The notes under the pieces were generated by a model. It saw only the letters and a list, made by a program, of their open reading frames with translations, was not told the DNA's origin and ran no database searches. From Escherichia phage UGJNEcP1, in sequence record OV754623: a stretch of 64,000 nucleotides of DNA, one strand, 5' to 3'. The position numbers and the translations under genes were made by a program. Positions 23,564 through 24,463 of this stretch are shown in pieces. Positions within the stretch are counted from its first letter, which is position 1, and every line of letters starts with the position of its first letter.

Positions 23564-23606
23564 ATATACCTTGTCGGGGTTTCCACCTACTAAGGCAAGT
23601 GTTTGT

Positions 23607-23698
23607 ACGAAACGCCGGGATTCGAACCCGGTTATTAAGCAGTTGACGCTACTCAATATTTTTAAAAGGCCATATCTTGACCATATCCGAACGTTCCG
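23607..23698 (-). ncRNA. tRNA-like element / possible stable RNA (T-arm GGTTCGAATCC with 7-bp acceptor-like stem)
   Basis: Minus-strand CCGGGTTCGAATCCCGG T-arm and complementary CGGAACG/CGTTTCG ends, but ~92 nt and no clean anticodon arm. Confidence 0.3.
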
Positions 23699-23866
23699 TC
23701 AAAAACGCTACTCGGCTTACGGCAAAGATATTTCCTCGAATCGATAATTCTGTGCGCCGTTTCTGCTGTGATGTAAGGGGATATTAACAAATCATAAAGA
23801 TTTATTAAGACCAGTCCTTACTCAGGGAACATCAGTCCGACGACTTGCCGGTAGCGACCCGGCTTC

Positions 23867-24211
23867 TTATTTTGGCATATCATCAATTTGTTCTCTACGT
23901 CTACGCCATAGATTAATTACTTCATCAACACATTCAGCATTTGGTATATGACGACAATAGTATAGTGATTCGCGTTTCTGGAACCGATGTTGTAATGGGA
24001 TTTCGTTTAAAAGGTCTTTACGGTCAAAGTATTCAAAACTAGTTAACCCAGAACGGTTTTTAATGAACTTCCAATGACCAAATTCATTTTGAACATAGAC
24101 GTAATCGGCATGCTGATACAGCGAATTAATTAACCTATCGGAAATAACTGTTTCACGTTCGTTAAAATAAAACGTTAAATCATGAACTACCAGATAAACA
24201 TTGCCTTTCAT
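23867..24211 (-). CDS. hypothetical protein (114 aa)
   Basis: Start moved to ATG 24209-24211 (GAGGAAAA Shine-Dalgarno); longer track ORF would overlap tRNA-Arg. Confidence 0.55.
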   Translation of the reverse strand: MKGNVYLVVHDLTFYFNERETVISDRLINSLYQHADYVYVQNEFGHWKFIKNRSGLTSFEYFDRKDLLNEIPLQHRFQKRESLYYCRHIPNAECVDEVINLWRRRREQIDDMPK

Positions 24212-24229
24212 ATTTTCCTCACTTAAAGT

Positions 24230-24306
24230 TGGTCGAGACAGAAGGATTCTAACCTTCAACCTACGGATTAGAAGTCCGTTGCTCTATACAATTGAGCTAT
24301 GCCTCG
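24230..24306 (-). tRNA. tRNA-Arg (anticodon UCU), CCA encoded
   Basis: Hand-folded cloverleaf: acceptor CGAGGCA/TGTCTCG, D-stem GCTC/GAGC, anticodon stem ACGGA/TCCGT, loop CTTCTAA, T-stem GAAGG/CCTTC. Confidence 0.8.
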
Positions 24307-24309
24307 GAT

Positions 24310-24384
24310 TGGTGACCCTGGCTGGTTTCGATCCAGCTACCTATCAGTTATGAGCTGACAGCTCTCCCATTGAGCTACAGGGCC
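24310..24384 (-). tRNA. tRNA with CAU anticodon (Ile-lysidine type or Met), CCA encoded
   Basis: Acceptor GGCCCTG/CAGGGTC, D-stem GCTC/GAGC, anticodon loop CTCATAA, T-stem GCTGG/CCAGC; 3 nt from tRNA-Arg. Confidence 0.75.
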
Positions 24385-24463
24385 TAAATAACTTTCTATT
24401 ATGAAAGGCACTTTAGAGCACCTTTGGTAATAGAGGGTATGAATTAATAATAACACATAATTC

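What the first reader, a model, noticed from the sequence alone, without database searches (positions are those of the whole stretch)
23567..24385. Minimal tRNA set (Arg-UCU, CAU-anticodon tRNA) plus a tRNA-like remnant
Only two cloverleaf tRNAs could be folded by hand, 3 nt apart with CCA encoded; T4 carries eight as I recall. About 600 nt downstream is a segment with a perfect T-arm and acceptor-like ends but ~92 nt long with no clean anticodon arm. It could be a class II tRNA, a decayed tRNA, or a stable RNA like T4 rnaC/rnaD. The ~300-nt ORF-free stretch around it may hold further small RNAs.
Basis: partly seen in the sequence, partly recalled or inferred. Interest (0 to 1): 0.45.

Follow-up and report, generated by a model that had tools for sequence, protein, structure and literature searches.

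The report
T4 rnaC/rnaD stable RNAs, two tRNAs
The "tRNA-like remnant" is the 3' part of this phage's copy of T4 rnaC, a long-known 139-nt stable RNA of unknown function; it sits next to rnaD and the two tRNAs typical of RB69-like phages, so the finding is ordinary, although comparing relatives shows rnaC is a very conserved tRNA mimic whose two hairpin loops pair with each other.

Summary
The window is an RB69/JS09-type T-even phage (Mosigvirus). ARAGORN and Rfam confirm two minus-strand tRNAs, 3 nt apart, both with CCA encoded: Arg-UCU (24230-24306) and a CAU tRNA (24310-24384) of the lysidine tRNA-Ile type. Two tRNAs is the published count for RB69.

The ORF-free stretch downstream is about 90% identical to T4 rnaD plus rnaC. 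I place rnaD at 23750-23870, rnaC at 23606-23744 and a terminator at 23535-23562. Its T arm and 3' acceptor strand are real. Its 5' acceptor strand is wrong: covariation puts the true partner 45 nt upstream (23737-23743).

Across 18 aligned rnaC variants (eight more checked separately), rnaC folds as a four-arm, tRNA-like RNA:
- a 7-bp acceptor stem;
- a long hairpin where a tRNA has its D arm;
- a 10-bp arm with a 6-nt loop, not an anticodon loop;
- a T arm.

The loops UUGACG and CGUCAA are complementary in every variant, with two independent compensatory changes, so they pair with each other. rnaC is 97.8% identical to T4; the neighbouring tRNAs are 54-70%.

It is neither a class II tRNA nor a decayed one. 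The function is still unknown, and I propose a non-decoding tRNA mimic. Novelty: already known.

The parts
24310..24384 (-). CAU-anticodon tRNA with encoded CCA, of the tRNA-Ile2 (lysidine, AUA-reading) type; orthologue of T4 tRNA-Ile
   Evidence: ARAGORN and Rfam at 59.4 bits. The acceptor GGCCCUG gives C4-G69 and C5-G68 and is shared with the annotated T4 tRNA-Ile. The only E. coli matches are annotated tRNA-Ile. PMC1524935 describes T4-like CAU tRNAs as lysidine tRNA-Ile.
24230..24306 (-). tRNA-Arg (UCU, reads AGA) with encoded CCA
   Evidence: ARAGORN and Rfam at 71.1 bits.
23867..24211 (-). 114-aa ORF of unknown function lying between tRNA-Arg and rnaD (context only); its TAA stop overlaps the first bases of the rnaD homology
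   Evidence: ORF list. phrog_3355, E = 9e-51, function unknown. Annotated as a hypothetical protein in the Mosigvirus ATK48.
23750..23870 (-). rnaD (T4 species 2 RNA) orthologue: a 5' hairpin with a 7-nt loop, then a long stem with a variable tip
   Evidence: Boundaries mapped from the RB5 and T4 annotations. 84% identical to T4. MFE z = -4.0. 11 of 32 consensus pairs have compensatory changes.
23606..23744 (-). rnaC (T4 species 1 RNA) orthologue: a 139-nt tRNA-like stable RNA
   Evidence: Mapped from the RB5, ATK48 and T4 annotations. Covariance model hit 23603-23744 at 167 bits. 97.8% identical to T4.
23737..23743 (-). rnaC acceptor stem, 5' strand (CGAUUCG)
   Evidence: Pairs with 23608-23614. 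A-U changes to G-C in 7 of 15 variants; the U.U mismatches become U-A and C-G in fHe-Yen9-01.
23673..23730 (-). rnaC long irregular hairpin in the D-arm position, closed by the 3-bp stem AGG (23734-23736) / CCU (23667-23669)
   Evidence: Compensatory changes in 18 of 22 pairs of its two helices.
23697..23702 (-). Apical loop UUGACG of the long hairpin; partner in the loop-loop pairing
   Evidence: Complementary to 23643-23648 in all 18 aligned variants, with two independent double changes. Eight further variants agree.
23633..23658 (-). rnaC 10-bp arm with the 6-nt loop CGUCAA (23643-23648); it lies where a tRNA has its anticodon or variable arm but is not an anticodon arm
   Evidence: Compensatory changes in 7 of 10 pairs. 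Loop pairing.
23615..23631 (-). rnaC T arm: a 5-bp stem and the loop UUCGAAU
   Evidence: Sequence. Two of its 5 pairs covary.
23603..23614 (-). rnaC acceptor stem, 3' strand (CGUUUCG, 23608-23614) followed by the tail UACAA. The tail is U-N-CAA in all but one of the variants seen (one ends CAG) and reads U-CCA-A in Klebsiella Marfavirus phages
23535..23562 (-). Intrinsic terminator-like hairpin GCCCCUUCCGAAAGGUUGGGGC followed by U6, ending the tRNA-rnaD-rnaC unit
   Evidence: Sequence and fold. Conserved in T4, RB5 and others; annotated as a terminator in related records. The simple scan missed it because of the internal U.U mismatches.

Best explanation
The region is the 3' end of the T-even tRNA operon in its RB69-group form. 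On the minus strand it reads tRNA-Ile(CAU), tRNA-Arg(UCU), one small ORF, rnaD (species 2 RNA), rnaC (species 1 RNA), terminator.

Shown here: rnaC is a conserved four-arm RNA. Its 5' and 3' ends form a 7-bp acceptor stem stacked next to a canonical T arm. The D arm is replaced by a long hairpin. A 10-bp arm carries a 6-nt loop. That loop (CGUCAA) pairs with the apical loop of the long hairpin (UUGACG).

Inferred from established tRNA biology and the T4 literature: the acceptor/T-arm half is the minimal substrate for RNase P and the 3'-end trimming enzymes. rnaC would therefore be cut out of the operon transcript like a tRNA and persist as a stable RNA. With no anticodon loop, and with its only anticodon-like loop occupied, it cannot decode.

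Proposed, with weak support: it works as a tRNA mimic that binds or decoys a conserved host tRNA-binding factor, and it is an accessory, host-dependent function.

The two true tRNAs read AGA and AUA.
For: Identity:
- The stretch is 88-94% identical to T-even phages whose records annotate rnaC and rnaD (RB5, ATK48, T4).
- rnaC is 97.8% identical to T4 and rnaD 84%.

Structure:
- The RNAalifold consensus has 46 pairs, 21 of them with compensatory changes.
- On 18 variants from 8 genera, 95.1% of cells are paired and 30 of 51 pairs show double changes. No shuffle reached the observed value, and slid controls give 38-47% paired.
- The loop-loop helix is 100% paired. C-G becomes U-A in fHe-Yen9-01 and A-U becomes G-C in Marfavirus. 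Eight more variants are consistent.

Processing context:
- In Moon, Pet-CM3-4, Melville, fGh-Ecl01, fHe-Yen9-01 and a Proteus phage, rnaC sits a few nt from flanking tRNAs inside the tRNA array.

Selection:
- 683 of 750 phage records are at least 95% identical over rnaC. The figure is 78 of 806 for the whole 341-nt stretch.
- The adjacent tRNAs are only 54-70% identical to T4's.

Expression in T4: shown by Northern blot (PMC9697503).

Host-dependent role:
- JS98 has a clean deletion of rnaC.
- A convergent SNP arose in the rnaD-rnaC cluster when a T4-like phage adapted to a new E. coli host (PMC12685909).

tRNAs: in the window's ORFs AGA is 7.2 and AUA 11.8 per 1000 codons. From my own knowledge, not checked here, both are rare codons in E. 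coli.
Against: - No expression or end-mapping data exist for this phage.
- The mature ends are taken from annotations of T4 and RB5, not measured.
- The 3' tail is UACAA, not CCA, so processing like a tRNA, or CCA addition, is an inference.
- A fully intramolecular loop-loop contact needs the roughly 25-bp long hairpin to bend back towards a 10-bp arm. The same covariation would also arise from dimerisation.
- Only two independent compensatory events support the loop pairing, because the loops are otherwise invariant.
- The decoy or ligand function has no direct evidence. Reviews and recent papers state that the function is unknown.
- The Kanagawavirus variant has a non-canonical T loop (UGCAUGC), so a strict tRNA-like elbow is not universal.
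Confidence: 0.8

Rival explanations
1. The segment 23607-23699 is a class II-like tRNA of about 93-96 nt. Its acceptor would be ACGGAAC(G) paired with (C)GUUUCGU, and the 10-bp hairpin would be a long variable arm.
For: In T-even sequences this helix is 8 bp with no mismatch, and 89% of cells pair across 15 variants. ARAGORN makes this call in two relatives: 'tRNA-???(aa)' in G9062 and a 96-nt 'tRNA-Phe' in Pet-CM3-4. There is a weak tRNA-Sec match at 16.3 bits over 23607-23699.
Against: - No pair in this helix has a compensatory change, and shuffles do as well or better.
- It carries an A.C mismatch in 7 of 15 variants and three mismatches in fHe-Yen9-01 and Melville.
- The competing 5' strand at 23737-23743 covaries.
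- It would destroy the distal stem (5 of 6 pairs covary) and the loop-loop pairing.
- It has no acceptable anticodon arm.
- ARAGORN and Rfam do not call it in the window.
- The annotated T4 RNA is 139 nt.
Confidence: 0.03
2. It is a decayed tRNA gene, a pseudogene left after the RB69 lineage lost most T4 tRNAs, with no function of its own.
For: It lies in a tRNA operon that has clearly lost genes relative to T4 (2 tRNAs against 8). It keeps only part of a cloverleaf.
Against: - It is the most conserved element of the locus: 97.8% identical to T4, against 54-70% for the functional tRNAs.
- It is present in T4 itself and in at least 8 genera with rich tRNA sets.
- 30 of 51 pairs show compensatory change, which requires selection on the fold.
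- It is expressed as a stable RNA in T4.
Confidence: 0.02
3. rnaC and rnaD act only in cis, as processing and stability modules. They would be structured 3' ends giving RNase P and RNase E sites and protecting the tRNA transcript from 3' exonucleases, with no function in trans.
For: They sit at the 3' end of the operon just before the terminator in T-even phages. rnaC has an RNase P-type acceptor/T minihelix. JS98 does without rnaC.
Against: - In Karamvirus, Moonvirus and Gelderlandvirus rnaC lies in the middle of the tRNA array, not at its 3' end.
- A mere structural cap would not need invariant loop sequences, a conserved loop-loop pairing, or near-100% sequence identity across genera.
- The RNAs accumulate as discrete stable species in T4.
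Confidence: 0.12
4. The stretch encodes small proteins, as many GenBank records annotate 'hypothetical protein' over it.
For: Short ORFs exist here: 23513-23656 (47 aa), 23662-23790 (42 aa, TTG start) and 23571-23747 on the plus strand (58 aa). Many records carry CDS features over the homologous DNA.
Against: - Substitutions fall as paired compensatory changes in helices, not in a codon pattern.
- The ORFs are not conserved in the divergent homologues, whose long hairpin is entirely different in sequence but keeps the fold.
- The experimentally known products in T4 are RNAs.
Confidence: 0.02

Closest known systems
Bacteriophage T4 rnaC (species 1 RNA) and rnaD (species 2 RNA)
   Same: Orthologous. 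The window is 97.8% (rnaC) and 84% (rnaD) identical to T4, in the same order and strand, downstream of tRNA-Arg and upstream of the same terminator. rnaC is already annotated in the Mosigvirus ATK48.
   Different: A 114-aa ORF separates tRNA-Arg from rnaD here; in T4 they are 1 nt apart. The rnaD 3' end reads CACAGAA where T4 has CACCAAA. A 9-nt stretch is missing from the hairpin between rnaC and the terminator.
Canonical tRNA (Rfam RF00005), including class II tRNAs
   Same: A 7-bp acceptor stem formed by the two ends, directly followed by a 5-bp T stem with a UUCGAAU loop. It lies in tRNA arrays, a few nt from neighbouring tRNAs.
   Different: - No D arm; a hairpin of about 60 nt takes its place.
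- No 7-nt anticodon loop; instead a 10-bp stem with a 6-nt loop that pairs with another loop.
- Two U.U mismatches in the acceptor stem.
- The tail is UACAA, not NCCA.
- Not detected by the tRNA models.
tmRNA tRNA-like domain
   Same: An RNA whose ends form an acceptor stem plus T arm, while the remainder is a different, larger structured body held by tertiary base pairing.
   Different: No G3.U70 pair, no encoded CCA, no tag reading frame. ARAGORN and Rfam give no tmRNA call. rnaC is much smaller, at 139 nt.
tRNA-like RNAs released by tRNA-processing enzymes (mascRNA from MALAT1; bacterial YrlA Y RNA-like RNAs)
   Same: Non-decoding RNAs that imitate part of a tRNA, so that tRNA enzymes process or bind them. 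This is the mechanism I propose for rnaC. The comparison rests on my own knowledge of those systems.
   Different: No sequence or model similarity. The only YrlA match in the region (16.6 bits, threshold 69) lies on the true tRNAs, not on rnaC. In YrlA the tRNA-like module is internal and the ends form a Ro-binding stem; in rnaC the ends form the acceptor stem.
RB69 tRNA complement
   Same: Two tRNAs, Arg-UCU and a lysidine-type Ile-CAU (PMC1524935). The window is 100% identical to Escherichia phage UGJNEcP2 and 98.7% to JS09, both of this group.
   Different: None found.

Membership tests
T4 rnaC (species 1 RNA) | Sequence homology to the annotated T4 rnaC over its full length | tested here: met
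   136 of 139 positions identical to NC_000866 rnaC; 138 of 139 to RB5 rnaC.
T4 rnaC (species 1 RNA) | Position in the tRNA operon: after tRNA-Arg and rnaD, before the operon terminator, on the same strand | tested here: met
   Alignment with RB5 and ATK48; T4 annotation.
T4 rnaC (species 1 RNA) | A conserved secondary structure shared with other members | tested here: met
   The covariance model built from 15 members scores the window at 167 bits.
T4 rnaC (species 1 RNA) | Accumulates as a stable RNA of about 140 nt in infected cells | not testable with these tools
   Shown for T4 by Northern blot (PMC9697503). No data for this phage.
T4 rnaD (species 2 RNA) | Sequence homology and position directly 5' of rnaC | tested here: met
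   84% identical to T4 and 91% to RB5. The 5' 45 nt and 3' 20 nt of the homology are invariant in 8 sequences.
tRNA (canonical, including class II) | Acceptor stem plus T arm with a T loop | tested here: met
tRNA (canonical, including class II) | Anticodon arm: a 5-bp stem with a 7-nt loop | tested here: not met
   The arm has a 10-bp stem and a 6-nt loop (CGUCAA) paired to another loop. ARAGORN makes no call in the window.
tRNA (canonical, including class II) | D arm; score above the tRNA model threshold | tested here: not met
   There is no RF00005 match to rnaC even at E <= 10. The best tRNA-clan match is tRNA-Sec at 16.3 bits, threshold 47.
tRNA (canonical, including class II) | 3' NCCA end and aminoacylation | tested here: inconclusive
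   The encoded tail is UACAA here and UCCAA in Marfavirus. Addition of CCA after transcription, and charging, cannot be tested here.
tmRNA | tRNA-Ala-like domain with G3.U70, plus a tag reading frame and pseudoknots | tested here: not met
   ARAGORN finds no tmRNA and Rfam gives no tmRNA match. Position 3:70 is A-U or G-C.
tRNA-Ile2 (lysidine-modified CAU tRNA), for 24310-24384 | CAU anticodon with an acceptor stem carrying C4-G69 and C5-G68 (the TilS determinants, from my own knowledge); similarity to the known T4 tRNA-Ile | tested here: met
   The acceptor GGCCCUG/CAGGGUC is shared with T4 tRNA-Ile. The E. coli matches are annotated tRNA-Ile. PMC1524935.
tRNA-Ile2 (lysidine-modified CAU tRNA), for 24310-24384 | Lysidine at position 34 and charging with isoleucine | not testable with these tools
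   Needs mass spectrometry of the RNA or an aminoacylation assay.

The most novel reading that the evidence does not exclude
rnaC is a non-decoding tRNA mimic. A conserved 6-bp loop-loop pairing either locks its body shut within one molecule or makes it dimerise. It acts in trans as a decoy or ligand for a conserved host tRNA-binding factor (a processing enzyme, a tRNA-targeting defence nuclease, or a translation factor) and so contributes to host range.

I found neither this architecture nor any function in the searchable literature, and Rfam has no family for rnaC or rnaD. The loop-loop pairing itself I rate at about 0.8. The probability given here is for the whole statement, including the trans-acting role.
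Probability: 0.2. Interest if true: 0.6.

Novelty: already known. Interest (0 to 1): 0.27.

Why it matters
RB69-type phages are published with these two tRNAs, and rnaC and rnaD have been known T4 gene products since the 1970s.

Four points are useful.
- Annotation: most GenBank records of these phages leave rnaC and rnaD unannotated, place hypothetical CDSs over them, or, with ARAGORN, call the 3' 96 nt an odd tRNA. Rfam has no family for either RNA. The alignment and covariance model made here could fill that gap.
- Biology: rnaC is far more conserved than the neighbouring tRNAs across at least 8 genera of enterobacterial T4-like phages, yet its function is still unknown.
- Structure: the model gives concrete mutations (loop against compensating loop) and a concrete hypothesis (tRNA mimic or decoy) with which to test that function.
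- tRNAs: the two retained tRNAs read AGA and AUA, which the phage genes use at 7.2 and 11.8 per 1000 codons.

Tried and rejected
Counted on the alignment: no compensatory change and broken in the divergent lineages. Rejected in favour of 23737-23743.
- **Rfam.** At gathering thresholds and at E <= 10, nothing covers rnaC or rnaD. Only chance-level matches appear (tRNA-Sec 16.3 bits, NsiR1 17.5 bits on the terminator).
- **tmRNA or a further tRNA in the window.** None found.
- **A second rnaC copy in the window, or one in JS98.** None with the covariance model.
- **More distant homologues.**
  - Two IMG/VR pattern scans gave only T4-like contigs; about 100 chance pattern matches were rejected by the model.
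  - The weak hit in L053 (22 bits) lacks the T arm and acceptor stem and was discarded.
  - One scan of bacterial and archaeal genomes gave no hit.
  - One metagenome scan gave only T-even-like contigs.
  - I therefore found no cellular counterpart and no further variation in the loops.
- **Literature.** I found no paper in the held library giving a function or a structure for rnaC or rnaD. The 1970s sequencing papers and the 2003 T4 genome review are not held. I cannot rule out that an early paper already drew a similar fold.
- **The ORF between tRNA-Arg and rnaD.** Pfam and PHROGs give only families of unknown function.
- **The simple promoter and terminator scan.** Uninformative: counts were at shuffle level, and it missed the minus-strand terminator.
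Full report
**What the window is**

The 1051 bases around the finding are 100% identical to Escherichia phage UGJNEcP2 and 98.7% to JS09 and HX01. These are RB69-type T-even phages of the genus Mosigvirus.

**The two tRNAs**

- ARAGORN finds exactly two tRNAs in the 64 kb, both on the minus strand: tRNA-Arg(tct) at 24230-24306 and a CAU-anticodon tRNA at 24310-24384.
- Rfam agrees, at 71.1 and 59.4 bits, and finds no other family at its gathering thresholds.
- The two genes are 3 nt apart and both end in an encoded ACCA.
- It is not new. RB69 is published with 2 tRNAs. The same paper notes that T4-like CAU tRNAs carry the signatures of lysidine-modified tRNA-Ile (PMC1524935).
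- The window's CAU tRNA has the acceptor stem GGCCCUG/CAGGGUC, giving C4-G69 and C5-G68. It shares this stem with the annotated T4 tRNA-Ile. Its only E. coli matches are annotated tRNA-Ile.
- The pair therefore reads AGA and AUA. In 73 long ORFs of the window, AGA is used at 7.2 and AUA at 11.8 per 1000 codons, 16% of Arg and 16% of Ile codons. From my own knowledge, these are among the rarest codons in E. coli.

**The ORF-free stretch**

- The stretch 23530-23870 on the minus strand matches 806 phage records, 679 of them over at least 80% of its length.
- Records that annotate the homologous DNA call it rnaD and rnaC: RB5, RB27, RB33, ATK48, T4T and the T4 reference.
- Alignment with RB5 and ATK48 and the T4 reference annotation place rnaD at 23750-23870 and rnaC at 23606-23744.
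- A conserved terminator hairpin with a U run follows at 23535-23562.
- A 114-aa ORF (23867-24211; phrog_3355, function unknown) separates tRNA-Arg from rnaD. In T4 the two are 1 nt apart.

**Which fold is right**

I collected rnaC homologues from eight genera and from IMG/VR contigs. The genera were Tequatrovirus, Mosigvirus, Karamvirus, Kanagawavirus, Moonvirus, Tegunavirus, Gelderlandvirus and Marfavirus.

It is mispaired at one position in 7 of the 15 variants and at three positions in two lineages.
- The alternative 5' strand, CGAUUCG at 23737-23743, pairs with CGUUUCG at 23608-23614. Its A-U pair becomes G-C in 7 variants. Its two U.U mismatches become U-A and C-G in fHe-Yen9-01.
It calls the same 96 nt 'tRNA-???(aa)' in G9062, where the call has entered the GenBank record, and 'tRNA-Phe' in Pet-CM3-4. 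It makes no such call in the window.

**The rnaC structure**

The consensus has four arms:
- a 7-bp acceptor stem;
- a 3-bp stem, AGG/CCU, that closes a long irregular hairpin in the D-arm position;
- an A-rich linker of 8 nt;
- a 10-bp arm with the 6-nt loop CGUCAA;
- one nucleotide, then a canonical T arm (CCGGG-UUCGAAU-CCCGG) that abuts the 3' acceptor strand.

On 18 distinct sequences, 95.1% of cells form standard pairs. Thirty of 51 pairs show a change on both sides, and none of 500 shuffles reaches the observed values. Slid controls give 38-47% paired. The single-sequence fold has z = -4.0.

**Loop-loop pairing**

- The apical loop of the long hairpin (UUGACG, 23697-23702) is the exact complement of the 10-bp arm's loop (CGUCAA, 23643-23648).
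- Both loops are invariant except in two lineages, and there both sides change together. fHe-Yen9-01 has UUGAUG with CAUCAA. Klebsiella Marfavirus phages have UUGGCG with CGCCAA.
- All 108 cells are paired. Slid controls give 17-50%.
- Eight additional variants all keep complementary loops.
- The data cannot say whether the contact lies within one molecule or between two. An intramolecular contact needs the long hairpin to bend back.

**Conservation and distribution**

- Between this phage and T4, rnaC is 97.8% identical, rnaD 84%, the CAU tRNA 70% and tRNA-Arg 54%.
- Of 750 records matching rnaC, 683 are at least 95% identical.
- In Moon, Pet-CM3-4, fGh-Ecl01, Melville, a Proteus phage and fHe-Yen9-01, rnaC sits inside the tRNA array, a few nt from flanking tRNAs. 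This fits excision by the tRNA-processing enzymes.
- The tail after the acceptor stem is U-N-CAA in all but one of the variants seen (one ends CAG). It reads U-CCA-A in Marfavirus.
- JS98 keeps rnaD but has a clean deletion of rnaC, so rnaC is accessory.
- I found no counterpart in 185,579 bacterial and archaeal genomes with a 19-base pattern.
- Metagenome and IMG/VR hits that the covariance model confirmed all scored at the level of the T4-like phage copies, most of them on contigs of about 100-177 kb.

**rnaD**

rnaD has a 5' hairpin whose closing pair covaries, G-C against A-U. It is followed by a long stem whose ends are invariant and whose tip is variable or replaced. Eleven of 32 consensus pairs have compensatory changes, and z = -4.0.

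**What is known**

Reviews and recent work say the roles of RNAC and RNAD are unknown (PMC3014915; PMC9697503). The second paper confirms expression by Northern blot. A 2025 study found a convergent SNP in rnaD when a T4-like phage adapted to a new E. coli host (PMC12685909). Rfam has no family for either RNA. The original 1970s sequencing papers are not in the held library, so I cannot say whether a similar fold was drawn then.

**Mechanism**

- Shown: the identity of the RNAs, the fold, the loop-loop pairing, the strong purifying selection, and the embedding in tRNA arrays.
- Inferred from established tRNA biology: the acceptor/T-arm half is the minimal RNase P substrate, so rnaC is released and stabilised like a tRNA. 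Without an anticodon loop it cannot decode.
- Proposed, at low confidence: it is a tRNA mimic that binds or decoys a conserved host factor, with a host-dependent benefit.
- Rivals: a class II tRNA, a decayed tRNA and small proteins are each contradicted by the covariation and conservation data. A purely cis-acting processing or stability module remains possible, but it explains the invariant, mutually complementary loops poorly.

**Verdict**

The feature is already known. My interest score is low to moderate, and comes mainly from the unexplained conservation of rnaC and from the loop-loop architecture, which can be tested directly.

Noticed in passing
window 23867-24211 (-): A 114-aa ORF (phrog_3355, function unknown; a sub-threshold match to DUF2654) lies between tRNA-Arg and rnaD. 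Its TAA stop overlaps the start of the rnaD homology. In T4, tRNA-Arg and rnaD are 1 nt apart, and the homing endonuclease gene segB sits between tRNA-Ile and tRNA-Arg; here those two tRNAs are only 3 nt apart.
   Followed up: partly
L009 (JS98, EF469154) about 1498-1640: JS98 (Dhakavirus) keeps tRNA-Arg, rnaD and the terminator region but has a clean deletion of the whole rnaC. The junction reads GCGCACAGAA|CACTTGCC.
   Followed up: partly
L151 452-547 (G9062, NC_054920) and L006 1547-1642 (Pet-CM3-4): ARAGORN calls the 3' 96 nt of rnaC 'tRNA-???(aa)' in G9062, where the call is in the GenBank record as tRNA-OTHER, and a 96-nt 'tRNA-Phe' in Pet-CM3-4. Both are misfolds of rnaC. Many other records place hypothetical-protein CDSs over rnaC and rnaD.
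   Followed up: yes
A5 columns 76 and 124 (Entb_45 and L121, Kanagawavirus): The only lineage with a non-canonical T loop (UGCAUGC, with G where a tRNA has U55) is also the only one in which the first G of the conserved UGGCC, just 5' of the CCU strand, is C. This may be a D-loop/T-loop-like contact (the G18-U55 analogue) covarying. It is a single lineage, so the evidence is weak.
   Followed up: no
L129 1135-1199 and L130 1131-1199 (Klebsiella Marfavirus phages): Between the Ile-type CAU tRNA and rnaC these phages have no rnaD homologue. Instead there is a different stretch of about 60 nt with complementary ends (GGGGUGG...CCACCCC), which may be another structured RNA.
   Followed up: no
window 23569-23599 (-): The hairpin between rnaC and the terminator lacks 9 nt (TGCCGCAAG) that are present in RB5 and ATK48 in the three-way alignment. 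Other T-even copies (T4 and several IMG/VR contigs) carry a similar segment.
   Followed up: no
window 23526-23533 (-): TATAAATA, the T4 late-promoter consensus, lies directly after the terminator's U run and 36 nt upstream of the ATG of the 208-aa ORF (22864-23490; phrog_2280, function unknown).
   Followed up: no
window 23608-23614 with 23737-23743: The rnaC acceptor stem carries two adjacent U.U mismatches, conserved in every lineage except fHe-Yen9-01, where they are Watson-Crick pairs. Conserved mismatches of this kind could be a protein recognition site.
   Followed up: no
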